Source: a virus (lineage: Duplodnaviria; Caudoviricetes). From it: DNA of 34,445 bases. The DNA lies in IMG/VR virus record IMGVR_UViG_3300042196_000194, positions 1-34,445 of that record, one strand, 5' to 3'. The translations under genes were made by a program, and so were the position numbers. The notes under the pieces are model-generated. The model saw nothing but the letters and a program-made list of their open reading frames with translations. It was not told the DNA's origin and did not search any database. Below, one piece after another: positions 103 through 27,211 of this stretch (its first letter is position 1; every line of letters starts with the position of its first letter).

Positions 103-291
103 ATGACTAAGCTACACCTGCCTAACAAGAACTCCGCTAAGCGGGCGCTGCACAAGGCCCACTCGGGCTGCCACCTAGGCTACTTCGCGGCGGCCGCGCT
201 GGAGGGCCACGGCGCCTACTCGGCGCTGGCGGCGGCCCTGTTCGTGCTGTCTATCGTCATGCTGTTTACCCACGCAGAGGGGGCCGAGTGA
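103..291 (+). CDS. small hypothetical membrane protein
   Basis: 62 aa, purine-rich RBS upstream, hydrophobic C-terminal helix; stop overlaps next start (GTGA). Confidence 0.6.
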   Translation: MTKLHLPNKNSAKRALHKAHSGCHLGYFAAAALEGHGAYSALAAALFVLSIVMLFTHAEGAE

Positions 292-491
292 TGTTTAAAC
301 TCGTCAGAGACTATCACCGCCGGCACTTCTTCGCCGGCACCCAGGGAGAGCGGCGCGTTAGGTACGTAATCTTCGCGGCCCTCCTGGTCTCCGAAACACT
401 GCAGCTCGCGGCGCCCGGCGAGCCGTGGACGGCCCCCACGTCGTGCCTGCTCGCGCTGGCGGCGGCGTGGCTGTGGATCTTCGAGGCGTAG
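288..491 (+). CDS. small hypothetical membrane protein
   Basis: 67 aa with two hydrophobic segments; translationally coupled to previous ORF. Confidence 0.6.
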   Translation: MMFKLVRDYHRRHFFAGTQGERRVRYVIFAALLVSETLQLAAPGEPWTAPTSCLLALAAAWLWIFEA

Positions 492-504
492 AGGGGGCGG
501 CGGC

Positions 505-690
505 GTGACGCGGGCTCTAGCGACGGTAGACGCCGAGCTGGTCGAGGCGTACGAGCGAGGCGAGCTAGACGACTTCGGCGTCACGCTGCTGCTCCAAAAC
601 TTGTGTGACGCCGGGCTCTCGGACCTCGCCTCTGAGCTCGGCGCACGGCACACCCCGACGGGGAGAGAGGAGAGAAAGAGAAGTGTATAA
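505..690 (+). CDS. hypothetical protein
   Basis: 61 aa ORF, GAGGGG RBS, in a contiguous gene run. Confidence 0.55.
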   Translation: MTRALATVDAELVEAYERGELDDFGVTLLLQNLCDAGLSDLASELGARHTPTGREERKRSV

Positions 691-1009
691 GCTGACGATA
701 TCATACGAGCTGCGGGACGGGGCCCAGGACAGGGTGGTGACGGACTTGGTGCGCGAGACGCTGGCGGGCGAGGGCGGCGTCCTGGCCTCGCCGTCGGAGG
801 AGGTGCTGGCCGGCTCGGGAGCGGCGGGTCGGAGGCTCGTCTTCACGTTCACGGAGAGACCGGACACGGAGAAGATCGCCGAGGTGACGGGCGCCCTGCT
901 CTGGGAGAAGAGAGAGCAGCTTCCGAACGACTTCAAGCTGACGGGGGACGTGGTGAAGATCACGGCGCCTCGGTACACGCCGAGGCGCCGAGTGAGGTGG
1001 CCGGGGTGA
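683..1009 (+). CDS. hypothetical protein
   Basis: GTG at 683 after a purine-rich RBS, in frame with the 605..1009 ORF; overlaps previous stop. Confidence 0.6.
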   Translation: MYKLTISYELRDGAQDRVVTDLVRETLAGEGGVLASPSEEVLAGSGAAGRRLVFTFTERPDTEKIAEVTGALLWEKREQLPNDFKLTGDVVKITAPRYTPRRRVRWPG

Positions 1010-1032
1010 GACGCTCGCGGGAGGACTAGGAC

Positions 1033-2295
1033 GTGCTAGCAGACTGGGTAACTTGGGCGGGGGAGCAGCTCGCCGAAAACGACATTCTGGCGGGCATCAT
1101 CGGCGGCTCGGCGTTCGCCAGCGGCCTCTACGCGCTGCGCTCGGCGCCCGCCCGGGCGTGGGAGGTGCTGCGGCACCAGGGCACGTGCGAGCTGACGATC
1201 TACAGCGACGACCCGGCCTTCGAGTGGGTCGACGCGTGGCTGGACCGGCAGCCGTACTCGCGCCGGGCGAGGCGACTCAAGCTCGTCGGCGCCGGCATAG
1301 AGACGGGCGTGCCGGGGCAGTCTGAGAGCGGGAAGAGGAGGCCCTGGAAGCTGGTGCCGGGGCCGGGAGCGCACCTGCTCTGGCACCGCGGCCGCCCGCT
1401 GCTGCTGACGCGCGCGGTCTCGGATCCCAAGGAGGGGGCGCGCAGGTTCAGCGAGACCCTGACGTTCGCGTGCCTGGGCCGAAGCCAGGAGACGCTGCGG
1501 CGACTCGTCGCCGAGACTCAGGAGCTGAGCGAGGGCGAAAAGTTCGTCGACGTGCTCGACTACGGCGACGGCTACTGGCGCCGCTGCGCGAGAAAGCGGC
1601 CGCGGGACCTCGAGTCCGTGGTGCTCCAGCGGGGACAGATCGAGCGCGTGGTCGAGGACGCCGAGTGGTTCTTCCGCGCGGAGGAGTGGTACCTAGCGCG
1701 GGGCGTGCCCCACCGGCGCGGCTACCTGCTGCACGGGGAGCCCGGCGTCGGCAAGAGCAGCCTCGTCCTGGCGCTGGCGAGTCACCTGGGGAGACAGCTC
1801 TACACGCTCAACCTAGGAGGGATCCTGGGTGACCAGGCGCTGATCTCGGCCCTCGGCGAGGTGCCCGCGGGGGCGATACTGCTGATCGAGGACATCGACG
1901 CGACCAGGGCGAGCGCGCGGCGGGACGCCGGGAAAAAGAAGAAGGACGACGAGGGCGTGCTCGGAGCCTCACAGAGCGCGCTGCTCAACGCCTTGGACGG
2001 GGTGGCGTCCGCGGACGGGCGGCTGCTCGTGATGACCACCAACAGGCCGGAGGACCTAGACCCAGCGCTCGTCAGGCCGGGGCGAGTGGACCTCACCGAG
2101 AAGCTGCTGCCGCTCGACGGGCGGGGCGCGGCCAGACTGTTCCTGAGGTTCTACCGGGGACAGGAGAGACTGTCTTCCCGCCTGGGCACCGAGCTGACGG
2201 AGTCTTACACGGCCGCGAGACTCCAGGCGCACTTCATGCTTCACCGAGACTCGCCGGACGACGCCGTCGAGCTGCTGCTCGCGGGACTGGTCTAG
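1033..2295 (+). CDS. BCS1-like AAA+ ATPase (N-terminal TM, BCS1_N-like domain, AAA domain)
   Basis: N-terminal hydrophobic helix; WY..RGVPHRRGYLLHGEPGVGKSS (Walker A), ILLIEDID (Walker B), LLNALDG, MTTN, LDPALVRPGRVD typical of the BCS1 clade. Confidence 0.9.
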   Translation: MLADWVTWAGEQLAENDILAGIIGGSAFASGLYALRSAPARAWEVLRHQGTCELTIYSDDPAFEWVDAWLDRQPYSRRARRLKLVGAGIETGVPGQSESGKRRPWKLVPGPGAHLLWHRGRPLLLTRAVSDPKEGARRFSETLTFACLGRSQETLRRLVAETQELSEGEKFVDVLDYGDGYWRRCARKRPRDLESVVLQRGQIERVVEDAEWFFRAEEWYLARGVPHRRGYLLHGEPGVGKSSLVLALASHLGRQLYTLNLGGILGDQALISALGEVPAGAILLIEDIDATRASARRDAGKKKKDDEGVLGASQSALLNALDGVASADGRLLVMTTNRPEDLDPALVRPGRVDLTEKLLPLDGRGAARLFLRFYRGQERLSSRLGTELTESYTAARLQAHFMLHRDSPDDAVELLLAGLV

Positions 2296-2530
2296 CCGAC
2301 GGACAGGTCCGAGAGGTGCAGAAGACGGTAGTCGGGGTCGAAGGGGGCGGCTAGACCAGCCGCGGGCGGCGAGGCGGCGGTAGACGGGGTCCAGGTGTGT
2401 CCAGGTTCACGAGAGGGGGTGGAGTAGAGGGTAGAGCCGGTCGGAGCGTCTCGCGGGCCGGGGGATGTTAAAACGTCTGTGGACTCGTTGGGACGCGCCG
2501 GGAACCGAAGAGGGGAGTGAGTCACGACGG

Positions 2531-3031
2531 ATACTCCTAGGGGCGTGGCGACTGGACGTAGTGTATACCGGCGGGGGTTAGCGGTAAACTGAGACTTGTG
2601 GAAAATGAACTTTACTATATGCGTATACGAGACGTGTATCTCGTGAATTGAAAGTCCTCGCACGCTCGATAAGAGCATTCTGAGTGTTATCATAATAATG
2701 CATTGTATATCAACACGGTACTCCTAGGGTACTCCTAGGGTACTCCTCGTTTACAAAGTGTAAAGTACCGGTAACCAATTGTTGCGATTAGAGATACTCC
2801 CAGAGGTACTCCCGGTACTCCCACATTTTACTTTTGAAAAAATATTTTTGTGTCTCGCGTGCGCGCAATTATGCGCGCGTACGCGCGAGAGGATAATCTT
2901 TTAATCTGAGAGGCGTAAGAACTTCTGGCAATCTCTGGGCACGCTTTAATAATTTAAGGATCTGTCACAGTTAGGAACGCGCTCTATGTGAGGTACTCCC
3001 ACTAGGAATTTTCCCATTTTCATGGGAGTAC
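2531..3031. repeat. iteron-like RTACTCC repeat cluster in AT-rich non-coding DNA (possible origin or terminus/packaging site)
   Basis: RTACTCC at 2531, 2718, 2729, 2740, 2794, 2806, 2815, 2993 and inverted at 3025; 11-bp tandem GGTACTCCTAG at 2717-2747. Confidence 0.7.
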
Positions 3032-3518
3032 CTTTCACACAATTTTCAACCATTAGTACATAAAACTCACTAGTTTATACAACTTAAAGTAGAGTGAGAC
3101 TTCAACCTATGATTGCTGATCTGTTAAACTTTATCAACCTTGGGTTGTAAATGTATGTAGGTGTGATCTTCTATCCTCGGGCTATTTATCGTCGAATTTC
3201 TCAGTTATCTAACCTGTGTCTTGGTGAGCTCAGTTTCTCTAAGACACGTCTTGGCGCGCTCAGTCCTCCAACTAAGTCTCGATCTAGAGACTCAAATTTC
3301 CGACGGAGTGGACAGCATTTGAGGGTAAAAGGATGAAATCTAAGGTCTTAAAATCGCCTACGGCTGCAATTTTTAAGTTTATTAAAAATACTTAGGCATT
3401 TTATCGTCAACTTGGTGATGAGTTATAGCTGACTCGTCTCAATACTTTGAAGAACCATGTGTGTCCCTCCCAACTGAGGCCGCACGCCTCCTTCCCCGAG
3501 CCACGCACCACCCCGCCC

Positions 3519-3600
3519 GTGTCGTGTGTCGTGTGTCGTGTGTCACGGGCCGCCCTGCGTGTGTCGTGTGTCACGGGCCGCGCACATCGAGTGTCGTGTG
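3519..3600. repeat. GTGTCGT heptamer tandem repeats
   Basis: (GTGTCGT)3-GTGTCACGGGCCG from 3519, partly repeated at 3559-3580; related tracts at 4345-4397 and 4971-5098. Confidence 0.8.
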
Positions 3601-3640
3601 GATTCACTAGGATTTCAACTACTTAGCCCGGTGGGCTGGG

Positions 3641-3680
3641 AAAAATGTGGGGAGGCACCTCTACGTGAGACGCCTCCCCA
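3641..3680 (-). terminator. intrinsic terminator of leftward unit
   Basis: 9-bp stem TGGGGAGGC/GCCTCCCCA followed by a T-run on the minus strand. Confidence 0.65.
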
Positions 3681-3773
3681 GTTCGTGGTGATCGGTAGGT
3701 TCAGGCCCGTGCCGGCGGGTGTCGGCGAGCTAGGGGGTAACTCTTTACGGGCCTGAACCTAAGACGCCCTTAC

Positions 3774-4157
3774 CTAGGCGACCTTCTGGTCTTCGGGCTT
3801 GGTCTCCGCCGTGGAGGCGGTGCCCGAGAGCTCTTCGAACAGGTGACGCAGGCTCTTGGAGACGCCGATCTTGCGCTCCTCGGCCTTTTCGAACAAGATC
3901 TGTGCGCTGAGGCTCTTGGGCTTGCGGCCCGCGCCTCGGGCGCGATCGACGGCGAACACCTTGCGGACCGTGTACTCTCCCGGCCTCACCTCGACCTCGG
4001 AGCCGTCGGCCGCGTGGGCTGTGCCGCCCTTCGCGGTGAGCTGGCGTCCGTCCTGCCAGGCCGACTTGTAGTCTTCGGCGTCGAGCTGGAAGTTGATGAC
4101 CGGTTCACCCTCGCCCGTCTGCGGACGTCGGTCGGCCTGAATGTCATACTTGGACAC
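3774..4157 (-). CDS. hypothetical early protein (paralog of 5643..6035)
   Basis: GTG start after AGGAG RBS (alternative ATG at 4181); colinear similarity to the 5643..6035 product. Confidence 0.8.
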   Translation of the reverse strand: MSKYDIQADRRPQTGEGEPVINFQLDAEDYKSAWQDGRQLTAKGGTAHAADGSEVEVRPGEYTVRKVFAVDRARGAGRKPKSLSAQILFEKAEERKIGVSKSLRHLFEELSGTASTAETKPEDQKVA

Positions 4158-4243
4158 TGTCTGAGTTCTCCTCTCTGTCATGGCGGAGTCCTCCGGGACC
4201 CCGTACCGCACGGCAAATCTCCAGTTGCCGCTCCATATATCTA

Positions 4244-4272
4244 ATATTGGTACTTGTGTTACACTGTGTAAA
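4244..4272 (-). promoter_or_regulatory. sigma70-like promoter with overlapping palindromic operator
   Basis: minus strand TTTACA-17 nt-CAATAT; near-palindrome GTTACA-N3-TGTAAA 4258-4272. Confidence 0.7.
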
Positions 4273-4429
4273 TCTCAATCTGAAGATCTGAAAAGTTTTG
4301 GGTCTTGGCTCTGTACAACACTTCAGGACCCTCAACACGCGTGAGTGGCCCGAGGCGCGTCGTGTGCGGCCAGTGGCCCGAGGTGCGTCGTGTGCCACGC
4401 GCGGCCCGGGGACCGTGGCTCGCTCTGCG

Positions 4430-4858
4430 CTAGTCCTTGCTCACGAAGTAGTTCGCGTGAGTTCCTGGCAAGTTGAGAAGAAATTGACGCTCGTCGGCGT
4501 CGAACGTCAGTGCCTCGCCGGCGACCGCGCTCAAGTAGGCCTTGGAGAATAGGTCGAGCCAACGAAGCGCGTCTCGAGCTGAGACGAGCGGGACGGTTCC
4601 GTACTTAAGTTCGGTTGTGCAGTAAGTTTTCGTCTCTCCTTCCCACCACGAGATAAACGCTGTGAGGGCGAAGGGGCCCAGGTCCTCTGTCTGGTCAATC
4701 GCGATGTTGGCGACGCTTACTCCTGGCCCATAACCTCCACCACCGTCGTCGACAGAGAGTTCAACGCAGACGTAGAGGTGCTCTGTCTCGGCGAGTCCTA
4801 ACTCAAGTCTCTCGTAGAGGTTAGGATACACGTCTTTGAACGAGTTTAAGATTGTCAT
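4430..4858 (-). CDS. hypothetical early protein
   Basis: 142 aa ORF, GGAG RBS, immediately downstream of a near-consensus promoter. Confidence 0.8.
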   Translation of the reverse strand: MTILNSFKDVYPNLYERLELGLAETEHLYVCVELSVDDGGGGYGPGVSVANIAIDQTEDLGPFALTAFISWWEGETKTYCTTELKYGTVPLVSARDALRWLDLFSKAYLSAVAGEALTFDADERQFLLNLPGTHANYFVSKD

Positions 4859-4884
4859 CGTGGGTTTCTCCGTCTCTATTGTCT

Positions 4885-4913
4885 ATTATACTCGAGAATT
4901 TACAACTTGTAAA
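4885..4913 (-). promoter_or_regulatory. sigma70-like promoter with overlapping palindromic operator
   Basis: minus strand TTTACA-17 nt-TATAAT; palindrome TTTACA-N3-TGTAAA 4899-4913. Confidence 0.85.
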
Positions 4914-5130
4914 ACTCAAACTTCACCTCGGTACAACACTTCAGGACGAAAGAACTAGCGCGTACTAAGCCACGGGCCGTGTGCTGTGTGCTACACACAG
5001 TGTGTCGTGTGCTGCACATTTTGAGTCAGGTGTAACACTTCAGGTGTACTGCAGTTCGCGTGGAAGGCCGTGTGCCGTGTGCCGTGTGCCACACACATAT
5101 GTTGGGTGTTTGATCGGGGATGTAGCTGAG

Positions 5131-5163
5131 AGGAAGGAGGGGCCGCTGAGCGCGGCCCCTTTC
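5131..5163 (-). terminator. GC-rich hairpin, probable terminator
   Basis: 9-bp stem AGGGGCCGC/GCGGCCCCT directly after the stop of 5164..5319; weak U-tract. Confidence 0.55.
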
Positions 5164-5319
5164 TTAGTTGAGTGGGACGATGTATGCTGTCTTAGACTCT
5201 TCGTCGAAGTCGACTGTCCAGTCAGATATCACCCCGCGCTCGTCGATGTCTACTTCAAACTCGCCGCAACCTTCAGCTATGAGGTCGCCGAGCATGGCAT
5301 AAATGTCGTTAACGGTCAT
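5164..5319 (-). CDS. small acidic hypothetical protein (51 aa, not in ORF track)
   Basis: GGAGG-N5-ATG; MTVNDIYAMLGDLIAEGCGEFEVDIDERGVISDWTVDFDEESKTAYIVPLN; followed by a hairpin. Confidence 0.75.
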   Translation of the reverse strand: MTVNDIYAMLGDLIAEGCGEFEVDIDERGVISDWTVDFDEESKTAYIVPLN

Positions 5320-5329
5320 CTTGACCTCC

Positions 5330-5584
5330 TCACGCGTGGCCCACGGCGACGGACTCGACGCCGGCCATGAACAGGGCCTCGTTCTTCTTGACCTCGACGA
5401 GACCGTATTCGGTCGCGAGCTTCTCGGCGGTGACCTGGGCCTCGGTCGGGTCGGCGGGCGTTCCGATGATCGGGACCCAGCCTACGTTCGTGAAAACCCA
5501 GACCTGCGGCCTGGTGTCGTCGCGCCACTGGACGGCGGTGCTAGACTCGCCGGCCGGCTTGCGCCAGTATCTCGTGTTAATCAT
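5330..5584 (-). CDS. hypothetical early protein
   Basis: 84 aa, GGAGG-N5-ATG RBS. Confidence 0.75.
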   Translation of the reverse strand: MINTRYWRKPAGESSTAVQWRDDTRPQVWVFTNVGWVPIIGTPADPTEAQVTAEKLATEYGLVEVKKNEALFMAGVESVAVGHA

Positions 5585-5603
5585 GTGATCCTCCTGTCGG
5601 GAG

Positions 5604-5642
5604 CTGAAGTGGGGGGCGTCAGTCGACGCCCCCCGATTTCAG
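5604..5642. other. intergenic hairpin
   Basis: 10-bp stem GGGGGGCGTC/GACGCCCCCC extended by CTGAA/TTCAG. Confidence 0.6.
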
Positions 5643-6035
5643 TTAGGCCGCGGCCTCGTCGGCCGGGACTTCTTCGGTCGTGTCACCCTCGGCCTCACTG
5701 GCCTCGGATAAGACGCCGCCCAGGGTCGCGTAGACCTCCAGGATCGCCTTCTTGACGGTGATCCCCTGGGTCTCGCAGGCCTCGAACAGTTGCTCGGCCG
5801 TGATAACCTTGGCCTTCTGCTTCTGCTCGCTCTCGTGCAGGAAGACGGAGCGAACCGTAAACACGCCGGCTGGCATGTCCACGTCGTCTCCGCAGCTCGT
5901 CACGACTCCGCCGACTCGGCAGAGACGACGGGCCTCGATCCAGGCCTGCTTGTATCCGACCTCGCGGATGTCGAAGTTGAAGCCTAGCTCGGCGCCGTCG
6001 CGCCGTGATGCGTTGATCGCGTATAGCTTGTTCAT
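5643..6035 (-). CDS. hypothetical early protein (paralog of 3774..4157)
   Basis: ATG at 6035 has a GGAG RBS (ORF track start 6047); acidic tail; similarity to 3774..4157. Confidence 0.8.
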   Translation of the reverse strand: MNKLYAINASRRDGAELGFNFDIREVGYKQAWIEARRLCRVGGVVTSCGDDVDMPAGVFTVRSVFLHESEQKQKAKVITAEQLFEACETQGITVKKAILEVYATLGGVLSEASEAEGDTTEEVPADEAAA

Positions 6036-6139
6036 CTTGAACTCCATCGTTTTTTTATGTGACAGGGGCTTGTTAGGGCGGAAGTGGCGATTGCCTGGTC
6101 CGTAGCCCCTTCTGGACGGAGTATCCGTCCATTGTGATC

Positions 6140-6168
6140 ATTCTATCAGAGAATTTACAAGTTGTAAA
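6140..6168 (-). promoter_or_regulatory. sigma70-like promoter with overlapping palindromic operator
   Basis: minus strand TTTACA-17 nt-TAGAAT; palindrome 6154-6168. Confidence 0.8.
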
Positions 6169-6624
6169 TCACAATTGTGACCCAATCTCAAGAATGCAAT
6201 ATTGTTGCCGATTTGAGAAGATTGGCTAGCTGGTTGGCTGCCGGCGTCTGAAGTGCGGCTGAACGGCCGCGGCAGTCGAACTTGGCTGCCGTATCAAACG
6301 GACGGGGGCTAACAGACGGAGACCAAGTTACGAGACAGCTGATCCCCCGGGCCGGGGACCACGTGTCCGGTCGCCTAGCTTGTGATGCACGAGTCGAGAT
6401 AGACCCGCCGCCGGCCGCGGGCGAGTCGGGGCCGGGGCTGGGGCCGTGGCTCGAGAAGTGTGGCCCGAGCTGGAGGCGGCGTGTCTCAAATAGCCTGAAC
6501 ACGGCTGTGGGGCCCCAAAATCGTGGTGTGCGGCCCCGTGTGTATCTGGGTACCCCCCGTCGGTCGAAAGCCGTTTAATAGGCACGCGTAACTCCGCCAA
6601 CCCCGCGATAGATTTTTTCTATGT

Positions 6625-6684
6625 GTTACAAGTTGTAAACATATAAAAATTGCGTTTTACAAAATGTAAATAATAGAGTAATAT
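6625..6684 (+). promoter_or_regulatory. rightward promoter upstream of the array, with two operator copies
   Basis: TTTACA(6656)-17 nt-TAATAT(6679); palindromes at 6625-6639 and 6656-6670. Confidence 0.75.
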
Positions 6685-6865
6685 ATCTGATGGCTAATCC
6701 AGTTACTCTGCTCACTCCTTGTGGCTAGTTAGCCTAGAGACGAGGACTCTAACTCGTCTTCGTCTTGAACTCCAAGCTAAACAACTTAGGGGACCCCGGC
6801 CCATCCTCCTCAACTCAACATCGGGTGCCGTCGGAGTCCCCTCTCTTTTGGCAGCCGTCGGTACA

Positions 6866-7883
6866 GAGAGATCATGATGCTAGAGCGAGCTATAGGTTAT
6901 GAGAGTTCACTTAATTGGAGCGAGCTACCGATGGCCGAGTGTTCACGGTACGAGAGCGAGTCATATCGTTGGAGTGTCCACAAAGTGTGAAGCGAGCTAC
7001 CGTCCAGGAGAGTCCACCTCACACGAGCGAGTCGTACTACTCGAGAGATCATCATGCGAGAGCGAGTCAACGAGAAGTGAGAGTTCACTGAAGGGAGCGA
7101 GTCACACCTTAAGAGAGTTCCTATCCCAAGAGCGAGTCTCAGACGACGAAGTGTCCCTGAAACAGGAGCGAGTTGTCGGCCGTTGAGAGTTCGAGAGAGA
7201 CGAGTAAGTTATACCGCTAGAGAGCTCTTGATCGGAGAGCGAGCTAAGTTACAGGAGAGATCATAGCAACAGAGCGAGTCCGAGAGTTCGGAGAGACCAA
7301 TGAACAGAGCGAGTCCCCTAGGTAGAGAGATCACAGTACGTGAGCGAGTCAGAAACTCTGAGGGCACAGTCTTAAGGAGCGAGTCAACCTATCTGAGAGA
7401 TCATAGTGTGAGATCGAGTCACATAGCTCGAGAGATCATAGCAACAGAGCGAGCCCGCGCGTGCGAGAGAGTTCATTGACTACGAGCGAGAGATATAGTT
7501 TACGAGAGTCCAGATCACAGGATCGAGCGAGCTACTCGGAGAGTTCACTGTAACGGAGCGAGCTACGAACCTTGAGAGTTCATTTCGCGAGAGCGAGCTA
7601 TCGTGTCGAAGAGATCGTAGGTATGGAGCGAGTCATTACGTCGAAGAGATCATAAGTGGGGAGCGAGCGCGATGCTGTTGAGAGTTCAAGGAGGAACGAG
7701 CGAGCCGTCGGCTTAGAGAGTTCAAAGAATACGAGCGAGCCGTAGGATCTGAGAGTTCAAATTATGCGAGCGAGTCTGGATAAGAGAGAGTTCGAAGACA
7801 AGAAGCGAGCCAGTGAGGATTGAGAGTTCATAACGGATGAGCGAGTCACAAGATAAGAGAGTTCATGCCCTTGGAGCGAGCTA
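6866..7883 (+). ncRNA. TIGR-like dual-repeat/dual-spacer array (~29 units of 35-37 nt), putative guide RNA array
   Basis: repeat 1 GAGCGAG(TCA/CTA) at 6883, 6918, 6954 ... 7839, 7874 alternating with repeat 2 GAGAG(T/A)TCA, separated by ~8-nt variable spacers; promoter upstream. Confidence 0.8.
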
Positions 7884-7884
7884 G

Positions 7885-8092
7885 GTGAGCTACATAGCTG
7901 ACAGACTGCGAAGAGAGTGCGGAGCTGCTGAGCGCGCTTGAGAAGATCGCGGCAGGCGAAGGAGCATACGGCGCGCAAGCTTACGAGTACAAGCAAGTTG
8001 CCCGCAAAGCTATCGCGGCGGCGGCGGCGAGACGAGGAGGTCACGGCTCGATCTCCCTCGCCGCCGCCGCCTGCTCGCCTGCGCGGCCCTAG
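7885..8092 (+). pseudogene. small phage protein, apparently frameshifted near 7918
   Basis: GTG 7885 MSYIADRLRRE.. ends early; AELLSALEKIAAGEGAYGAQAYEYKQVARKAIA.. continues in another frame with no standard start. Confidence 0.4.
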
Positions 8093-8167
8093 TTCTGCTC
8101 GCCGCCTACGTAGTGGCGCTCTTTTCGTGCTCGGCGTGACGTCGTCGGCACCTACAGGAGGAACCAA

Positions 8168-8401
8168 GTGAGACAAGAGTTTGAGATGACTGACGATGAC
8201 TTGGCCGAACTCTTGCTCGCCGGTCGTCCCACGCCCGCGGTGTTTCTGAGCGGAGGCATCCCGATGTTCGGAACACCGCAAGAAAACGCCAACGCCGCGT
8301 GGGAGCGGCTCGGTAAGAAGATGGGCTTCAATCCCTTCACGGTAGAGTTTGTCCCCGGCAAGGGACAGCGATGTTTCTCTGCCGAGACGGTCGAGCCGTG
8401 A
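8168..8401 (+). CDS. hypothetical protein
   Basis: 77 aa, AGGAGG RBS. Confidence 0.75.
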   Translation: MRQEFEMTDDDLAELLLAGRPTPAVFLSGGIPMFGTPQENANAAWERLGKKMGFNPFTVEFVPGKGQRCFSAETVEP

Positions 8402-8517
8402 CTACCCTCGGCGTGAACAGAAGGGGCGTCAAGTGTCTGAGCACTGGCAAACTGTCACCGAGCGAGTGGTGACGTCGAAGATCGACGGGCACTCTTCTCT
8501 AGCGACGGAGGACTAGC

Positions 8518-8724
8518 GTGAAGTTTAACCGGCTGACACGACGCTCGTCTCTACTTATAGACGTAGTCGTCTCTGGCGTCTTGCTCGCGGCGTCTGTGGT
8601 CGCGCTCGAGTTGTCTCACTACACCTTGGCGTGGGCTCTGCTGCTCGGGTTTTGTTGGTTTTTTAGCTCTGCGCTGTTTGTCGCGTTTGACTACTGCGTG
8701 AAGAGGTGGTTTTCATCTAGGTAA
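8518..8724 (+). CDS. small membrane protein
   Basis: GGAGG RBS, two hydrophobic helices. Confidence 0.65.
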   Translation: MKFNRLTRRSSLLIDVVVSGVLLAASVVALELSHYTLAWALLLGFCWFFSSALFVAFDYCVKRWFSSR

Positions 8725-8743
8725 GGCACAGGGGAGATGACAC

Positions 8744-9202
8744 GTGTTAAACTTTGAGGACTTGTTTAAGTTTGAGCTGAGCGTAGGAGCCCACCGGTCC
8801 CCGCAGACCGGTCTCTGCGCGATGGAGGCCGTCGCGTGGCTCGAGGGAGAGCCTCACACAGACAGCCCTAGGTGTGTGGACCCCGTCATCTCCATGTTTG
8901 TCCTAGAGATAAACGACAGGGCAAACTCTCAGGATCGTCAGAGGCTCATTCCGTACTTACCTAGGCTCGTGGGCACGGCTGAGACTAATAACGGCAGTGA
9001 ACTTAGGGCTTTTTATAGGAGGCTACAGCCACTGCTCGAGTGTCAGAGACTCGATCACGTTTACACCTGTAGTTGTTTCGACATGGACGCGGCGCTAAAG
9101 ATCTTAGACCAACTCTTAGAGCTCGCCGGCGCGTCTTCAGGGTTCTCTAAGCCGGTAGAGGAGCGGGTTCGGGTCTACGCAGAGCTCGTCAAGTCTAGGT
9201 AG
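8744..9202 (+). CDS. hypothetical phage protein (His/Cys-containing N-terminus)
   Basis: GGGGAG RBS; LSVGAH..GLCAMEAVAWLEGEPHTDSPRCV..INDR..RQRLIPYLPRLVGT resembles a recurrent phage hypothetical family. Confidence 0.75.
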   Translation: MLNFEDLFKFELSVGAHRSPQTGLCAMEAVAWLEGEPHTDSPRCVDPVISMFVLEINDRANSQDRQRLIPYLPRLVGTAETNNGSELRAFYRRLQPLLECQRLDHVYTCSCFDMDAALKILDQLLELAGASSGFSKPVEERVRVYAELVKSR

Positions 9203-9519: not shown

Positions 9520-9698
9520 CCCGCGGCCTGCCGCCCGAGGGTAGGAGGATGTCGTGCAAGATCTGCTGGGAGTGTCGGGAGATGCTGGACAGGCTAGGCC
9601 TGCCGTCGGGCAGCCGCATCTACGGCGGACCCTACCTCGGCTATCGGCTGCCCGACGGCAGCACGGAGGTACTGGAGAAGAAGGATGGGCAGAGATAG
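9516..9698 (+). CDS. small CxxCxxC protein
   Basis: coupled GTG start (or ATG 9549 after AGGAGG); SCKICWECRE. Confidence 0.55.
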   Translation: MTRGLPPEGRRMSCKICWECREMLDRLGLPSGSRIYGGPYLGYRLPDGSTEVLEKKDGQR

Positions 9699-10098
9699 TG
9701 AGGTGACGACCCTGGCGACCAAGAAAGACTTTCAAGTTACTTGGTTCTCGGGCACGGGCGCGGGCGGACAGCACCGCAACAAGCATCAAAACTGTTGCCG
9801 CATCACACACCTGCCCACCGGCATGACCGAGACGGAGCAGTCGCACCGGGAGAGGTCACACAACCAGAGAGACGCGTTCAGAAGGTTAGCCCGACGCGTC
9901 GTCGGCCACTACGTGAGGTCGAGGCAGCGTGAGCGGCACCGCAGCTTAGAGCGAGTCAGGACGTACGACGAGCCCGACAACCGCGTAGTTGACCACGCCA
10001 GCGGGCTGCAGTTGTCGTACTCAGAGATAGTTGGAGAACAGAACTTGGCGCCGATGATAGACGCTCGCTTGAAGGCGAGCATAGCAGATGACGGGTAA
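9685..10098 (+). CDS. class I release factor-like peptidyl-tRNA hydrolase domain protein (GGQ)
   Basis: SGTGAGGQHRNK..RITHLPTG..RERSHNQRDA..RVRTY..PDNRVVDH; only 137 aa, lacks the codon-recognition domain. Confidence 0.85.
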   Translation: MGRDSEVTTLATKKDFQVTWFSGTGAGGQHRNKHQNCCRITHLPTGMTETEQSHRERSHNQRDAFRRLARRVVGHYVRSRQRERHRSLERVRTYDEPDNRVVDHASGLQLSYSEIVGEQNLAPMIDARLKASIADDG

Positions 10099-11381: not shown

Positions 11382-13058
11382 ATGCCCCCCTATCCCAGGA
11401 ATAGCTTAGTGAGCCCGCGGCCCGGAGCCCTCGCGCCGCAGACCAGCTCGCTAGTGCCTCCGATCCCTCAGCCGACGGTGCCCGACCTAGCCCTGGGCCA
11501 CTACGACCCAGTCGAGTCCTTGAGAAACACGGGTCGAGGCATCGGCGAGTTCGCCCTGGGGCTGCTGCCGGGCTCCGGCGACGTCATGGCAGTTCAAGAC
11601 AGCGTCAGGGCTGGAGGTCAGATGGAAGAAGCCGCGCGGCGAGGAGACTACGGCCAGGCCGCGCTCAAGGGGGTCGAGTCTTTGGTGTCTGGCGCCGGAG
11701 CCCTACCCGTGGTGGGCGGGGTCACTCGCGGGGTGAGCAAGTTGACGACGAAGACCTTAGGTCGTCTTCGGCCCTGGCTCGCTAAGACCGTAGACAAGAG
11801 ACTAGTAGAGGACTTACTACGTCGCCCTGATGTTTCTCAAGTCGAGAGAAACTTACTCACGGAAGCCTTAGACGAGTACTCTGATAAAAGGATAGATGTT
11901 GCGAGGTTCACGTCGAGTGTGCAGCGTAAGCTTTTACCCCTGCAAGTTTTGGAAGTTAATCCGAGACCACCGGGAGTTGGTCCTCCCCTGCAAGACTACA
12001 TGAGGAGTGGTAGAAGTAGTGTTCACCCTGGTGATATACCCGCAAACGACTCTCAGTCTATCGTCGGAGAACACGCGAGGGTCTACTGGGGTGAGTCAGT
12101 TCCAGACGTAGGCTCACACTTTACCGTTCCAAACACATACGCGCATACGCGATCGTATGACTTAATGGACGGCACTCGTAAGGTACTAGAGGTTCAAAGT
12201 GATCTCATACAGCACGAGTTAGATACCGCCGTACTGTATGACCCATACTACTCGAGCAACCTCACAAGAGATCAAGTAAGAGAGTTTTTCGATTTCAGAC
12301 GTGATCACAAGAAAACTTGGTGGAAGAGGATAGTTCGCGAGGAGACAAGGCTCGCCGCCGGCGAGGGAAAGTCCGCCGTTGAGTTTCCCACCGGTGAAAC
12401 CGCGGCTAAGATACAGACCTGGGTAGCTGATGAAAATTACTTTGACTTAAGCTCTTTTAGTGTAAGAGTCGACGAAACTTTAGACACGTATTCAAACGAT
12501 TATCGAGATATCGTTAGAGATCCGTCCGAGTGGAAGAGCTACCTTTACGAGATTCTTCCTAAACAAAACCCGCTCTTCAGACGATCAGATGTGTCCTTAA
12601 AGTCGATAGCCGATGCGAGCGTGTCATACGGTCCTGGGGGATCTGATGAGAATGTACTACAGTATCTCTTAGCGGAGTATGGACCTTATGTTATCGGCCG
12701 TCATCCCGAGGTTAAGACACTGTCGGCGCTAGGAACCATGTCTAAGAAAGAGTTTTTGGAGTTTGTGGAAGAAAATCCACTTTCACCCGACGAGTTTGTG
12801 AAGAGTTTAAGATACATTGAACACAACTTTTATAGGGTCAATGACCTAGTTGAAACGACGAAAGTTCCAGATAAGTACAAGGGTCTCTATGATCTCTATG
12901 ACAAGGACATTCGCAACTTTGTGAAGAAGACCTACGGCGCCAGAGAGATCACCGATCCTTACGGTAACTCTTGGATGCACATAGACCTCGCGCCGGAGGA
13001 GAAGAACCGCCTCATAGACGTGTTTTCACAGCGGGAGACGGGCAATAGCACCGCCTAA
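11382..13058 (+). CDS. 'EVQSD' domain protein A, possible virion/ejected effector (paralog of 16572..18542)
   Basis: 558 aa; HF..YAHTR..LEVQSD..WWKRIVREE..FPTG..YDK blocks shared with 16572..18542. Confidence 0.75.
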   Translation: MPPYPRNSLVSPRPGALAPQTSSLVPPIPQPTVPDLALGHYDPVESLRNTGRGIGEFALGLLPGSGDVMAVQDSVRAGGQMEEAARRGDYGQAALKGVESLVSGAGALPVVGGVTRGVSKLTTKTLGRLRPWLAKTVDKRLVEDLLRRPDVSQVERNLLTEALDEYSDKRIDVARFTSSVQRKLLPLQVLEVNPRPPGVGPPLQDYMRSGRSSVHPGDIPANDSQSIVGEHARVYWGESVPDVGSHFTVPNTYAHTRSYDLMDGTRKVLEVQSDLIQHELDTAVLYDPYYSSNLTRDQVREFFDFRRDHKKTWWKRIVREETRLAAGEGKSAVEFPTGETAAKIQTWVADENYFDLSSFSVRVDETLDTYSNDYRDIVRDPSEWKSYLYEILPKQNPLFRRSDVSLKSIADASVSYGPGGSDENVLQYLLAEYGPYVIGRHPEVKTLSALGTMSKKEFLEFVEENPLSPDEFVKSLRYIEHNFYRVNDLVETTKVPDKYKGLYDLYDKDIRNFVKKTYGAREITDPYGNSWMHIDLAPEEKNRLIDVFSQRETGNSTA

Positions 13059-16571: not shown

Positions 16572-18542
16572 ATGGGCATGTTTGACAACTTAACGAAGCA
16601 GTCCTTAGCTTCTCCTGCGCTCCGAAACTTGCGCGAGGGGGTGCCTGAGTACGGCTCTGGTGAGGCGTGGTCTGGACCGCCGCCGAGTCCCCGTGAGAGT
16701 CTCGGAATCCTAGGCAACGTTGGAAATACAGGAATAGGTGTCGGTGACATCTTTCCGCCTACGGCCGTGCCTCTCGCGCTCTCTGACGTACGTGACATGC
16801 AGGAGCGCGAGAAGGTTGGGCTCGACGTGTCTGGAGTCGAAAAGGCCTTGACATACAGCGCCGTTCCGCTCTCTGCCGTCGGTGTAGGCTCCCTGGCGAG
16901 CAAGGCTGGGAAGATTGGCTCGCGCTACACCACTAAGACCCTGGAGCGACTGTTCGGTCGTGACACCGTTAAGAAGAAGTTCATCACAGACCTACTGAAC
17001 AGGGCCGACGTTACACAGGCCGAGAAGAATTTAGTTAGGCAGAGTCTCGACGAGTACGAGATGACTCGACTTAGAGAGACTCCCGAGGGTGGCCTAGTGC
17101 CGCCAAACAAGATTAACGTCAAGGACTTCACGGAGTTGGTGCAGGACAACGCGCTGCCACTTCAAGTTAACGACGTTCAACGTTACGCTACACAGGGACT
17201 CAGTCGAATCGGCGTGAGCTCCGGTGAAGTTTTGCCGGGAACGAGGGTCTACACGTCTCCAGTAAACACCATGTCCAGTCACCACTTTAAGACGGCGGAC
17301 GAGCCAGGACCTCGAGGTTACTTCGCTCACTCGCGATACTTCGACACCACTAACACTGACATATCTGGGAAGTTACTAGACCCTAACTCGAGAGACACGG
17401 CAAAAAGTATCCTCTCACGCCTGTTCACGGCTCCAGATGATATGTCTCTGATGGCCTACGAGACGAAGTATGGACACGGTTACTCCATGGGTCTCGGTCC
17501 TTATGACTGGGATGTAATATATGCCGTTACCCCAGGAAACATTCACAGCACGATCTGGAACATGGTCGACTCTGAGTCCTCATCTATGAAAAATGTAAAG
17601 GACCTCTTGTTGCCTTACATTAGGAGAGCCGCAGACACACGATACGTGAGAAACGTAGTAGAGGTGCAGAGCGACTTTTTTCAAAAGCCCGAGAAGGTAC
17701 TGAAGGCTGCCTCTCCTGAGCACTCTCTAGCTAACCAGAGTGACGTCGCCGACATGATCTCGAGGAATGATCCCGTGGTGATGAACTTACTGGAGAAGAC
17801 GGGGTACGACGTAACTTTAATGAGGGAGACAGCCGATCTTCCCGACAGTCACATGAACATGGCCTTTGAGTTGATGCAGGATCCTCGCTTTGTGAACAAG
17901 TTTAAGGAGCTTCAGTCACAGACCGTGGGCTATCAGAAGAACTGGTGGCGTCGTGTGGTTCGCGAGGAGATCAATCGAGCTGCCATCGACGGGGTAGACA
18001 CGGTGCGCTTTCCGACGGGCTCTACGGCGAGCATAGTAGCGAGGTGGAGCAACGCCTTGCAGAGCCCAGAGGACTTCATGAACGGCATGAAGTACTACTT
18101 TAAGCTTCACCCGAGTGCGGCTACGGTGGGTGACGTAAAGGCAGATCTTCTCGCAGGATCTATGGAGTTAAAGTACTCTAAGATGGTGTGGAACGAGGCC
18201 TCTAAGTTAAAGGACTCTGATCCTGTAGACAAGCTTATGTCCACTGCACTCGATCAGATCGACAAGAACAACGCCGAGCTCGTGAGAGGTCCTATGCGAG
18301 GGAGTGCAGATTTTTCTGGACTCTTTGATAGGTACGACAAGAACATTGCCGGACTGTTGAAGAAGGAGTACGGCGCGAAGTCTGTGAGAGATGACAAGGG
18401 TTACTCGTGGATAGAGCTCAACATAGCACCTGAGCATGAGAAAGATTTAAGTCTGTTTAACGTCGCTCCGCCCATAGTGGGCGCGGGAATAGTAGCGGAA
18501 GGAGTCGAAGGTGACTCGGAAACTGGACTTCCTAATCGCTGA
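16572..18542 (+). CDS. 'EVQSD' domain protein B (paralog of 11382..13058)
   Basis: 656 aa; HHF..YFAHSR..VEVQSD..WWRRVVREE..FPTG..YDK. Confidence 0.75.
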   Translation: MGMFDNLTKQSLASPALRNLREGVPEYGSGEAWSGPPPSPRESLGILGNVGNTGIGVGDIFPPTAVPLALSDVRDMQEREKVGLDVSGVEKALTYSAVPLSAVGVGSLASKAGKIGSRYTTKTLERLFGRDTVKKKFITDLLNRADVTQAEKNLVRQSLDEYEMTRLRETPEGGLVPPNKINVKDFTELVQDNALPLQVNDVQRYATQGLSRIGVSSGEVLPGTRVYTSPVNTMSSHHFKTADEPGPRGYFAHSRYFDTTNTDISGKLLDPNSRDTAKSILSRLFTAPDDMSLMAYETKYGHGYSMGLGPYDWDVIYAVTPGNIHSTIWNMVDSESSSMKNVKDLLLPYIRRAADTRYVRNVVEVQSDFFQKPEKVLKAASPEHSLANQSDVADMISRNDPVVMNLLEKTGYDVTLMRETADLPDSHMNMAFELMQDPRFVNKFKELQSQTVGYQKNWWRRVVREEINRAAIDGVDTVRFPTGSTASIVARWSNALQSPEDFMNGMKYYFKLHPSAATVGDVKADLLAGSMELKYSKMVWNEASKLKDSDPVDKLMSTALDQIDKNNAELVRGPMRGSADFSGLFDRYDKNIAGLLKKEYGAKSVRDDKGYSWIELNIAPEHEKDLSLFNVAPPIVGAGIVAEGVEGDSETGLPNR

Positions 18543-23893: not shown

Positions 23894-23960
23894 ATGTCGA
23901 TAATCCTTAGAGACGGTGTTACAATCAGTAATTCACAAGTTACGATGGGTGAAGATAACT

Positions 23961-25313
23961 ATGACACTGGAAGATCTCATTAAGAAGGGCAATAAGCTTC
24001 ACAAGGGAGGAAAACTAGACGAGGCAGAAAAGATTTACAACGGCATCCTCAACAGACACCCAGACAACCCAGGAGTTCTCTTCTTATTGGGAACTCTCTA
24101 TCTCCAAAAGCGCTGCAACGGACTCGCCATCAACTTACTTGAGTCAGCCCTGTCTCGACAAGAGTTTTCAGAAGCCTTTAACAACTTAGGAAGCGCGTAT
24201 AAGGCTGAGAACTTTAACGACATGGCGCTCAGAGCCTTTCACCGTGCCCGCGAGCTCAATGAAAAAGATCCAGATGTCTGCAACAATCTCTCCACCATCT
24301 ACATAAACGAGGGGCAGCCAGCCCAGTGTATCGACTGGGCCGACGAGGCTATTAAGCTCGACTCTGATCACCCCAATGCACACTGGAACAGGGGTCTAGC
24401 GTACTTAGAGCTAGGAGAGTGGGAGAGGGGCTGGGAGGGCTACGAGTGGGGGTTTAAGTCCAAGGATCGTCTATCTCGAGACTATAAGACAGACACAAAT
24501 AACGCGACTCGTTGGGACGGTAGTCCGGGGAAGACAGTCGTAGTGTACGGAGAACAAGGAGTTGGAGACGAGATAATGTTCTCGTCGTGCATTCCAGACT
24601 TAATTTCTGTCTCGAAGAAGGTGATCTTTGACTGTCACCCGAGGATGGTTGCCCTCATGCGGAGATCCTTCAACGTCGAGTGCTACGGCACTAGAAAAGA
24701 GTCCAGCATTGACTGGATTAAATTTCCCATCGACAACTTCGTGGCGATTGGCTCTCTCCCGGGGTTCTTTAGAAAGAAGAGTGAGGACTTTCCCGGCACG
24801 CCGTATCTGTTAGCGGACTCCGTGCGCGTAGAGCACTTTCGCGAGAAGATTAGCGCAGTAAAGCCGGGACTTCGCGTGGGCGTCACCTGGACAGGAGGTC
24901 GGAAGAAGACGAGGATTGACCTAAGGAGCATTCCTATCGAGCAGTTAGAGCGGCTATTCAACATTCCTGGAACATCTTTTGTAAGTCTGCAGTACACGCC
25001 GGAGGCCGCAGCGGAGGCCGAAAAGTTTGACCTTCCTCACTGGCAAGATGTGATCAACGACCTCGACGAGTTGACGGCGCTCACAAAGGCGTGCGACTTA
25101 GTCATCTCAGTCTGTCAGACTCAAGTGCACATGGCGGGGGCCCTGGGAGTTTCTTGTCTGTGTCTTACTCCGAGCAGACCGGCATGGAGATACGGCATGT
25201 TTGGAAACATGCCTTGGTACGGTAGCGTGACAAACATTCGTCAAGAGAGCGACGGGGACTGGGCAGGAGTTATAGAGGCGGCGGCAGCTAGACTGTTGGA
25301 ACTTACGAAGTAA
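23961..25313 (+). CDS. TPR-repeat protein with C-terminal GT-B (GT9-like) glycosyltransferase domain
   Basis: TPR motifs (AFNNLGSAY, AHWNRGLAYL), EQGVGDEIMF, RVGVTW, FVSLQY, CDLVISV..HMAGALG, WRY..PWY. Confidence 0.85.
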   Translation: MTLEDLIKKGNKLHKGGKLDEAEKIYNGILNRHPDNPGVLFLLGTLYLQKRCNGLAINLLESALSRQEFSEAFNNLGSAYKAENFNDMALRAFHRARELNEKDPDVCNNLSTIYINEGQPAQCIDWADEAIKLDSDHPNAHWNRGLAYLELGEWERGWEGYEWGFKSKDRLSRDYKTDTNNATRWDGSPGKTVVVYGEQGVGDEIMFSSCIPDLISVSKKVIFDCHPRMVALMRRSFNVECYGTRKESSIDWIKFPIDNFVAIGSLPGFFRKKSEDFPGTPYLLADSVRVEHFREKISAVKPGLRVGVTWTGGRKKTRIDLRSIPIEQLERLFNIPGTSFVSLQYTPEAAAEAEKFDLPHWQDVINDLDELTALTKACDLVISVCQTQVHMAGALGVSCLCLTPSRPAWRYGMFGNMPWYGSVTNIRQESDGDWAGVIEAAAARLLELTK

Positions 25314-25352
25314 GATAAGAGCATACGACTATAGCGGTGATGGAGAAACGCA

Positions 25353-26339: not shown

Positions 26340-26341
26340 CT

Positions 26342-27211
26342 GTGAAGATTAGTTACGTCTGTCACACCGGACTGAGCGTGGCTTCCACTAGGTATAGGAT
26401 TGTCATTCCCGCAAACGGTCTGAACAAGTTAGGACATCACGTTACCGTAGGTCCTCCCGACTTAGATGCTGATGTTGTCGTGTTTAGTAAGCACTTTTCC
26501 CAAGACGATCCTGACCTCGCTAGGAGAGCAAGGGGACGAGTGGCGTTTGACATCTGCGATGATCACTTCGACACTAAGTTTCGAGATCACTACACAACGA
26601 TGATTGACCTAGCTAGTACGATTACGTGTTCTACGGAGACCTTGAGAAGTAGAATTGCAGAGCGCACGGGACGTGAGGCAAACGTCATACCAGATCCGTA
26701 TGAATTTCCAGAGCAAGAGCCAAGTTTTTCTCCGGGGAACGTTCCTCGTCTGCTCTGGTTTGGACACGTCATTAACGTCGGCACGCTACGGCCTCTGATG
26801 CCGAGGTTAGAGCACTGCAAACTGACAATCATCACTAACGGTGACCTCTCTGCTCCTCGCGCTGGAGTGGAGGTTGTTAAGTGGAGTCCTCAGTCTATGC
26901 TAGTAGGCTTTAGACACTGCGACATGGTGATCATACCTAGTAATCTAGAGGAACATCGGACGCGAGTTAAGAGTACGAACAGAATTGTCGAGTCAATAAG
27001 ACAGGGAAAGTTTGTAAGTGCTAGTAAGCTGCCCTCATATGAACAGTTTTCTCCTTGGATGCACATCGGAGACGTGATCGAGGGTGTAGAGTGGGCACTG
27101 AGTAATCCTAGTGAAATTGTCGGTAGAGTCAAAGACGCACAGGGCTACGTTAAGACTAAGTTTTCTCCGAAAATAATCGCAAACCTCTGGGAGGAGGCCC
27201 TGTCGGCGTGA
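26342..27211 (+). CDS. putative GT-B glycosyltransferase
   Basis: ASTRYR, FDICDDHF, LLWFG, KSTNRIVESI. Confidence 0.7.
   Translation: MKISYVCHTGLSVASTRYRIVIPANGLNKLGHHVTVGPPDLDADVVVFSKHFSQDDPDLARRARGRVAFDICDDHFDTKFRDHYTTMIDLASTITCSTETLRSRIAERTGREANVIPDPYEFPEQEPSFSPGNVPRLLWFGHVINVGTLRPLMPRLEHCKLTIITNGDLSAPRAGVEVVKWSPQSMLVGFRHCDMVIIPSNLEEHRTRVKSTNRIVESIRQGKFVSASKLPSYEQFSPWMHIGDVIEGVEWALSNPSEIVGRVKDAQGYVKTKFSPKIIANLWEEALSA

What the first reader, a model, noticed from the sequence alone, without database searches (positions are those of the whole stretch)
6188..9202. Array is orphan here: no Nop-domain/Tas effector next to it
Seen: the ORFs flanking the array are short (mostly under 155 aa), and none shows a Nop-like helical domain, RuvC or HNH motif that I can recognise. 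Established: Tas genes (TasA/TasR/TasH) normally neighbour their arrays. Inference: the effector is encoded elsewhere in the genome, is borrowed from the host or another element, is an unrecognised protein, or has been lost. The array could also act as an RNA decoy against a rival TIGR-Tas system.
Basis: partly seen in the sequence, partly recalled or inferred. Interest (0 to 1): 0.75.

Follow-up and report, generated by a model that had tools for sequence, protein, structure and literature searches.

The report
Phage TIGR array split from TasA
This phage fragment carries a real guide-RNA array of the TIGR-Tas kind, with unusual 35-base units and no tas gene in its 34 kb, and a matching TasA gene in the same samples at similar depth makes it likely a split system on an incompletely assembled genome rather than a true orphan.

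Summary
The array is real: 28 full units plus a half unit at 6866-7883, behind a sigma-70-type promoter. No Tas/Nop gene or remnant lies on the 34,445-bp record, and the largest flanking ORFs show no Nop likeness. Arrays with the same GAGCGAG/GAGAG repeats sit with Tas proteins elsewhere, so this is a TIGR array. 'Orphan' is not shown. The record is an incomplete podovirus (78%; its last gene continues on other contigs). Among array-bearing viral records, 25 of 25 that are at least 90% complete carry tas, and arrays 7-50 kb from tas occur in 6 of 71. This array is a rare 35-nt subtype (loop repeat one base short) that elsewhere flanks mostly one TasA clade. A nuclease-less TasA sister to that clade (P0050, on a 24,204-bp contig) is present in two of three runs holding this phage, at similar depth. 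It is most likely the partner; physical linkage is not shown. Edge box C is more variable than in 134 other arrays. No self-targets were found. This scan noted orphan or satellite TIGR arrays before on other DNA (15 findings). Verdict: new variant of a known system.

The parts
6656..6684 (+). Sigma-70-type promoter TTTACA-17-TAATAT pointing into the array; its -35 lies in a palindrome (TTTACAANTTGTAAA-like) that recurs five times in the region
   Evidence: (9 of 12 consensus matches; 9 sites found vs 2.1 expected); function inferred
6690..6865 (+). About 175-nt leader predicted to fold into three hairpins; role unknown
   Evidence: -62.1 kcal/mol, z -3.1, 3 of 200 shuffles as stable
6866..7883 (+). 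Dual-repeat TIGR array, 28 full units plus a half unit, 35-nt period: edge repeat GAGCGAG-YYA (10 nt), spacer A (8), loop repeat GAGAG-W-TCA (9), spacer B (8)
   Evidence: same repeat class as Tas-linked arrays
8017..8126 (+). Long GC-rich hairpin (8017-8071) followed by a terminator-like hairpin with a U-rich tail (8100-8126); possible end of the array transcript
   Evidence: I5; z -2.2; inferred
5643..6047 (-). Divergent 134-aa ORF; no Nop likeness, only weak matches (TM<=0.40 by query) to small unrelated folds
8168..8724 (+). Two small ORFs (77 aa; 68 aa, hydrophobic) downstream of the array; no family hit; too short for a Nop domain
8744..9202 (+). 152-aa helical protein of a family of unknown function (phrog_13065); no clear fold match and not seen beside other TIGR arrays

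Best explanation
The repeats are a TIGR guide-RNA array of a rare 35-nt subtype with no tas gene on this 34-kb record, and their partner is likely a nuclease-less TasA (best candidate P0050) encoded in the unassembled part of the same phage genome. Shown: the anatomy, the absence of tas on the record, the incompleteness of the record, the link of 35-nt arrays to TasA elsewhere, and the presence of P0050's gene in two runs that hold this phage. Inferred: the promoter at 6656-6684 would give one transcript with a hairpin leader and about 29 guides. A TasA dimer would bind the box C/D-like motifs (assigned here as D = AG, C = YCA/YYA, with the G.Y pair kept in 54 of 56 repeats) and cut within each edge repeat through its C-terminal Y/H loop, releasing about 35-nt tigRNAs. 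Each guide would aim the dimer at a site built as spacer A followed by the reverse complement of spacer B (16 variable bases). By analogy with tested TasA, it would block transcription or replication there without cutting. The targets are likely foreign DNA (rival phages or host), since none lies on this record.
For: Same repeat class as Tas-linked arrays: 71 of 80 array-bearing viral records carry tas, 25 of 25 at >=90% completeness; the 9 negatives are 10-82% complete, and 7 of them have the array within 1.3 kb of a contig end. Split loci exist: 8 of 128 arrays in 6 of 71 records lie >6.9 kb from tas, including 24 units at 18 kb and 21 units at 50 kb. The record is incomplete: CheckV 78%, linear; no replication gene among 66 ORFs scanned; its 3'-open gene is completed by P0132 on an 8,538-bp contig. 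35-nt arrays flank TasA on 9 of 12 metagenome contigs, and the other 3 contigs are 1.0-1.7 kb long. Five of six full-length 35-nt TasA form one clade (SH-aLRT 100, quick tree). Laying one such gene on the runs found a tas-like contig in X1 (depth 8.05) and X2 (5.7) with the same letters; the phage's pieces have depth 7-11 in X1 and 3.7-6.3 in X2 outside a deeper stretch at about 3.3-7.1 kb. Both loose ends translate into P0050, and the insert length agrees. P0050 is sister to the 35-nt clade (support 88), shares its PYPFAHLGH motif (13 of 279 fetched proteins) and folds like TasH/TasR (pLDDT 90.8; top 10 Foldseek rows). Like the window's own proteins, it is recorded on 2 JGI/IMG contigs. The repeats are under selection: edge positions 1-7 deviate at 6 of 203 letters while spacers are nearly all unique.
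Against: No contig links P0050 to the window: its DNA was not found in the viral collection and the 24,204-bp contig could not be fetched. Depth agreement rests on two runs, one of which (X1) may be the window's source; the gene was not seen in X3, where the phage itself is patchy. The runs hold other tas-like pieces (one at depth 6.9/28/37.5 and several at 2-4). A sister phage allele exists (P0131, 22,131-bp contig), so P0050 could belong to a different genome. P0050's own array type was not seen, and its place beside the 35-nt clade has support under 95. None of 32 terminase relatives (0 of 5 near-complete) has tas, so there is no relative that shows the linkage. In 70 of 71 tas-positive records an array lies within 5 kb of tas, so a lone distant array is the minority arrangement. 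Edge box C is CCR in only 3 of 29 repeats (0.41 mismatch against a median of 0.10; none of 134 other arrays is as high), which could mean relaxed selection. No RNA data.
Confidence: 0.7

Rival explanations
1. True guide-only phage: the genome has no tas and its array is loaded in trans by a TasA from a co-occurring sister phage, prophage or host (P0050 on another genome).
For: A sister allele on a 22,131-bp contig shares the 3' part of the window's last gene. In X1 the stretch 181-6683 has depth 15.2, about the sum of the array contig (6.96) and the tas contig (8.05), which two genomes sharing that stretch could also give. In one Bacteroidota MAG, arrays lie on a 64-kb contig and the only tas on another contig (L335). 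The array has its own promoter and likely terminator.
Against: 0 of 25 near-complete array-bearing records lack tas. The record is missing at least several kb. No 35-nt array was found in 185,579 GTDB genomes. The depth step is equally explained by a long terminal repeat.
Confidence: 0.16
2. Relic: tas was deleted and the array is drifting.
For: Edge box C is the most variable of 135 arrays. 11 of 19 differences seen over 12 kb fall in the array. A natural case exists: L341 has an array beside a truncated tas start.
Against: The drift is position-specific: edge positions 1-7 (0.03) and the loop are in the normal range, and the Y at box C position 1 is kept in 28 of 29 edges. TC and CT dominate over CC and TT (Fisher p 0.014), which points to two propagated variants rather than decay. 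No tas remnant at protein or DNA level. Promoter and leader are intact. Arrays far from tas were not clearly more variable overall (9 vs 69 arrays, p 0.31).
Confidence: 0.06
3. RNA decoy that soaks up a rival element's TasA.
For: Strong early-type promoter, many units and no self-target. Altered edge box C could slow processing and trap Tas (inference).
Against: A decoy does not need 56 nearly all-different spacers of fixed length. The 35-nt geometry matches a rare TasA clade, not the common 36-nt systems. No published case was found in two searches.
Confidence: 0.04
4. An unrecognised non-Nop protein encoded beside the array is the effector.
For: Most flanking ORFs have no family annotation, and the array's box C is atypical.
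Against: None of the 8 small flanking ORFs tested between 5167 and 9202 has a tblastn hit in loci L001-L233. The 152-aa family HMM finds nothing in the array-scan loci. Its confident model has no Foldseek match at E<=0.001 and best Z 4.7. Repeats of this class go with Tas nearly everywhere else.
Confidence: 0.04

Closest known systems
Dual-repeat TIGR-TasA systems (Faure et al. 2025, PMC12045711; e.g. FpTIGR; SpTIGR has 16 variable spacer bases)
   Same: Two alternating 8-12-nt repeats with short variable spacers; box C/D-like motifs with a G-Y pair; edge repeat with an extra C-G pair; phage location; candidate effector is Nop-only with the C-terminal Y/H loop.
   Different: 35-nt rather than 36-nt units (loop repeat one base short). 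Box C is UCA/CUA rather than CCR. No tas within 6.9 kb upstream or 26.5 kb downstream. The array opens with a loop repeat after a hairpin leader. The candidate TasA has an insertion of about 110 aa.
TIGRFinder catalogue and TasA repressors (Xu et al., bioRxiv 10.64898/2026.09.09.750476)
   Same: Dual-repeat architecture; nuclease-less TasA shown there to repress transcription.
   Different: That survey looked only around tas loci, seeds on 4-bp gaps and calls dual-repeat tigRNAs a fixed 36 nt. A tas-distant array with a 3-bp loop gap would likely be missed (inference; the dual-repeat motif list was garbled in the text held).
35-nt arrays with TasA in metagenome contigs (L240, L244, L249, L255, L278, L299, L305, L312; separately L283), found here
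   Same: Period 35, loop repeat GAGAG-W-YCA, 8-nt spacers.
   Different: Those arrays flank their tasA and keep edge box C as CCR in 60-100% of repeats, against 10% here.

Membership tests
Dual-repeat TIGR array | Two distinct alternating 8-12-nt repeats separated by short variable spacers | tested here: met
   10-nt and 9-nt repeats, 8-nt spacers (7-10), 28 units; definition from PMC12045711
Dual-repeat TIGR array | [quoted passage not shown] | tested here: met
   AG...YCA/YYA in both repeats; Y opposite the invariant G in 27 of 28 edges and 27 of 28 loops. The box assignment is inferred from the 36-nt Tas-linked consensus; edge box C positions 2-3 are unusually variable
Dual-repeat TIGR array | 36-nt unit length | tested here: not met
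   35 nt in 20 of 28 units. The same period occurs beside intact tasA genes on 9 contigs, so this marks a variant rather than exclusion; the paper says 'typically 36 nt'
TIGR-Tas locus | tas (Nop-domain) gene next to the array | tested here: not met
   none on the 34,445-bp record
TIGR-Tas system (genome level) | tas gene in the same genome | tested here: inconclusive
   Record 78% complete; candidate P0050 co-occurs at similar depth in 2 of 3 runs but linkage is not shown
Dual-repeat TIGR array | Transcribed and processed within edge repeats into unit-length RNAs bound by Tas | not testable with these tools
   No RNA run available; needs small-RNA sequencing
Dual-repeat TIGR array | Spacers A and B pair with opposite strands of one DNA target | tested here: inconclusive
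   No self-target better than 2 mismatches, the same as shuffled spacers; foreign targets could not be searched meaningfully at 16 nt
TasA (for P0050) | Nop domain without an N-terminal RuvC or HNH domain, with the C-terminal Y/H processing loop | tested here: met
   phmmer to 9MTY E 7.5e-8 and 21KL E 7e-6; the fold search's top 10 rows are TasH/TasR; the Nop helices start at residue 24; the PAPAPYPFAHLGHVH tail aligns to the TasR C-terminus. Activity untested

The most novel reading that the evidence does not exclude
This phage has no tas gene of its own. It expresses 29 guides of a rare 35-nt, box-C-shifted type from an early promoter and loads them onto the TasA of a co-occurring sister phage or host, hijacking or redirecting another element's RNA-guided repressor. 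That would be a guide-only parasite of a TIGR-Tas system, with a candidate donor protein (P0050) already in hand.
Probability: 0.18. Interest if true: 0.75.

Novelty: new variant of a known kind. Interest (0 to 1): 0.4.

Why it matters
As a split locus it is ordinary biology in a recently described family. Two things still have value. First, the 35-nt subtype, tied mostly to one TasA clade, departs from the published 'fixed 36-nt' dual-repeat guide and would likely escape the current finder; with the shifted box C it offers a natural test of guide-protein specificity, and possibly an orthogonal TasA-guide pair. Second, the array differs between strains in the same habitat (spacer changes and a TC/CT box C switch), a small handle on the open question of how TIGR arrays diversify. 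If the closed genome lacks tas, it would become a testable case of guides used in trans.

Tried and rejected
Strict 35-nt patterns in the IMG/VR collection: 0 hits, 1 chance hit in a coding region, and 1 hit that is a 36-nt array; 0 in GTDB genomes. Rfam: 0 matches in the window. Terminase relatives (78 loci, 42-62% identical): no tas and no TIGR-like periodicity in the fetched DNA, no tas in 32 whole records; too distant to show what follows the array. Self-targets in two phases and two geometries with gaps of 0-4: best 2 mismatches, as for shuffled spacers. The minus strand as the guide strand was considered and rejected: the promoter points +, and tas genes lie on the same strand as this motif orientation in related loci. 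The 152-aa neighbour: PDB sequence search, atlas and two fold searches gave no clear match; this does not show its fold is new. The 134-aa neighbour: atlas only. No RNA holder listed. Six named 35-nt contigs are absent from Table S1 of PMC12045711, which lists representatives only; three motifs are absent from Table S3. Box C variability against distance from tas: not significant. The careful tree did not finish, so the quick tree is quoted; four long-branch rows were dropped. The Minerva preprint was not relevant.

Full report
Observation. The repeat lies at 6866-7883 on the + strand: a leading half unit and 28 full units of GAGCGAG-YYA, spacer, GAGAG-W-TCA, spacer. The period is 35 nt in 20 of 28 units, and spacers are mostly 8 nt with one duplicated spacer. 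The pattern matches 21 times in the window against 0.84 expected. A TTTACA-17-TAATAT promoter-like site at 6656-6684 points into it. A leader of about 175 nt is predicted to fold into three hairpins (z -3.1), and a GC hairpin and a terminator-like site follow at 8017-8126. No Nop or Tas gene is on the record: searches give no hit, a Tas HMM with filters off gives best E 2.1 over six frames, and a tas DNA HMM best E 4.5.

The record. The genome held is the window itself, a linear IMG/VR record that CheckV rates 78% complete. It encodes a terminase, a P22-like portal, a capsid protein, an SU10-like adaptor and a glycosylation block, but no replication gene among the 66 ORFs scanned. Its last gene is cut by the contig end. 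P0132, on an 8,538-bp contig, is 100% identical over the overlap and completes it, and P0131, on a 22,131-bp contig, is a sister allele. Absence from this record therefore does not show absence from the phage.

It is a TIGR array. A relaxed pattern found 155 viral loci, from an estimated 350 stretches. Their one recurring neighbour is a protein whose core is 260-290 aa and which hits TaTasR (9MTY, E 3e-14) and SpTasH (21KL, E 2e-8). Those arrays read GAGCGAGCCR-N8-GAGAGNRCCR-N8; of the 91 rows (my count), 90 have a 36-nt mode, one 37 and none 35. I searched 80 whole records, one per contig of 10 kb or more with a detected array; shorter contigs and loci without a detected array were left out. 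Of these, 71 carry tas, including 25 of 25 that are at least 90% complete. The 9 negatives are 10-82% complete, and 7 have the array within 1.3 kb of a contig end. Distant arrays are real but a minority: 8 of 128 arrays, in 6 of 71 records, lie more than 6.9 kb from tas (24 units at 18 kb, 21 units at 50 kb), while 70 of 71 records have some array within 5 kb of tas. Two GTDB cases show other states: an array beside a truncated tas start (L341), and arrays on a 64-kb contig of a MAG whose only tas is on another contig (L335).

A 35-nt subtype. The window's loop repeat is one base shorter than the common form. The metagenome scan returned 80 stretches, mostly chance matches. Twelve contigs carry true 35-nt arrays; 9 of them also carry a Nop-only tas, and the other 3 are 1.0-1.7 kb long. 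Five of six full-length 35-nt TasA fall in one clade with L284 (SH-aLRT 100 in a quick tree; L283 lies apart on a long branch). No other 35-nt array turned up in the IMG/VR collection or in GTDB. The window differs again in its edge box C: TCA 8, CTA 7 and CCR only 3 of 29, a mismatch rate of 0.41 against a median of 0.10, with none of 134 other arrays as high; edge positions 1-7 deviate at only 6 of 203 letters. TC and CT outnumber CC and TT (p 0.014). Over 12 kb, 11 of 19 differences in three runs lie in the array, but they come from only two low-depth contigs (2.8 and 2.4) and may include errors; one switches a box C from TC to CT.

A candidate partner. Three DNA runs hold the stretch (shares 0.98, 0.97, 0.49; X1 may be the window's source). 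Laying a 35-nt-clade tasA on them at 80% likeness found one contig in X1 (1,508 nt, depth 8.05) and one in X2 (1,130 nt, depth 5.7) with the same letters, matching two conserved stretches with 339 letters between them. The phage's own pieces have depth 7-11 in X1 and 3.7-6.3 in X2, outside a deeper stretch (15.2 in X1; 9.4-12 in X2). The two loose ends translate to KWALGITGIG and SFVQQSNRES, both present in P0050, a 418-aa protein on a 24,204-bp JGI/IMG contig. P0050 is sister to the 35-nt clade (local support 88) and shares its PYPFAHLGH tail. Its model (pLDDT 90.8) is best matched by TasH and TasR structures and has no N-terminal nuclease. Against this: no contig joins it to the window, it was not seen in X3, other tas-like pieces occur in the runs with other depths, its own array was not seen, and a sister phage could be its owner. 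None of 32 terminase relatives has tas, so comparative support for the linkage is lacking.

Neighbours. The flanking ORFs are 68-152 aa. None of those tested has a tblastn hit beside other arrays. The 152-aa protein belongs to a family of unknown function whose HMM finds nothing in the array-scan loci; its confident model has no clear fold match. The 134-aa divergent ORF gives only weak structural matches.

Mechanism. From PMC12045711 and the Xu et al. preprint: Tas binds box C/D motifs, dual-repeat Tas cuts the edge repeat through a Y/H dyad, spacers A and B pair with opposite strands, and TasA represses transcription. Applied here by inference: one transcript from 6656-6684, cut into about 29 guides of 35 nt by a TasA made elsewhere in the genome, each aimed at 16 variable bases of foreign DNA. 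No self-target exceeds chance. I give this 0.70, use of another element's TasA 0.16, a relic 0.06, a decoy 0.04 and an unknown effector 0.04.

Literature seen. PMC12045711: passages, part 2 of 12, the Discussion, and term searches in Tables S1 and S3; its supplementary PDF with fig. S4 could not be read and may show 35-nt or TCA arrays. bioRxiv 10.64898/2026.09.09.750476: parts 1 and 5 of 7 and passages; supplements closed. PMC13421893, 10.64898/2026.08.11.744272 and 10.64898/2026.09.22.753630: passages only. 'Orphan' does not occur in the main text of the three TIGR papers searched for it; '35 nt' and '35-nt' do not occur in PMC12045711; and the searches 'tigRNA + orphan' and 'TIGR array + in trans' returned no report of orphan arrays (listings only). 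Earlier notes of this scan describe 15 orphan or satellite TIGR findings on other DNA (unchecked).

Verdict. Observation confirmed, interpretation partly supported. This is most likely a split TIGR-TasA system seen on a genome fragment. What is new is the 35-nt, box-C-shifted guide type and a named candidate partner. Interest 0.4; the guide-only reading has probability about 0.18 and would deserve about 0.75.

Noticed in passing
window 2750, 4899, 6154, 6625, 6656: A 15-bp palindrome (TTTACAANTTGTAAA, up to 2 mismatches) occurs five times; four copies overlap the -35 box of a promoter-like site, including the array promoter, so it is a likely operator for a phage regulator.
   Followed up: partly
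window about 3300-7100: Read depth is about twice the flanks in X2 (9.4-12 vs 4-6) and higher in X1 (15.2 over 181-6683), with an X1 contig break at 6683. A long terminal repeat holding the leftward early genes, or a stretch shared with a sister phage, would explain it; the array would then be among the first unique DNA.
   Followed up: partly
window 2717-3032: AT-rich non-coding stretch with seven GGTACTCC copies (six +, one -), origin- or packaging-site-like.
   Followed up: no
window 3519-3600, 4347-4408, 4979-5090: Three clusters of GTGTCGT/GCCGTGT-type repeats between the leftward genes; X2 shows six differences in the 4307-4407 cluster.
   Followed up: no
window 7884-8092: Directly after the array, a 64-codon protein-like frame (7898-8092) lacks a standard start, while a short upstream GTG frame ends early; possibly a frameshifted small phage gene.
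   Followed up: partly
L284:5460-6550: TIGR array beside a 35-nt-clade TasA in which the edge repeat is lengthened by one or two bases (GAGCG-NN-AGCCA) and the loop repeat is 9 nt: another geometry variant.
   Followed up: no
L341:5690-6470: Alphaproteobacterial MAG: array directly after a truncated tas start, next to a tRNA-like sequence and an integrase-like frame; a natural tas-loss case.
   Followed up: partly
window 23916-28460: Block of TPR, NAD-dependent epimerase, glycosyltransferase-like and methyltransferase genes inside the virion module, suggesting virion glycosylation.
   Followed up: no
window 1033-2295 and 9685-10098: BCS1-like AAA ATPase (PF08740 + PF00004) and an RF-1-domain protein, possibly for ribosome rescue.
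   Followed up: no
window 11382-13058 and 16572-18542: Two large unannotated ORFs (558 and 656 aa) of similar look flank the DHH/terminase genes; no Pfam or PHROG hit.
   Followed up: no
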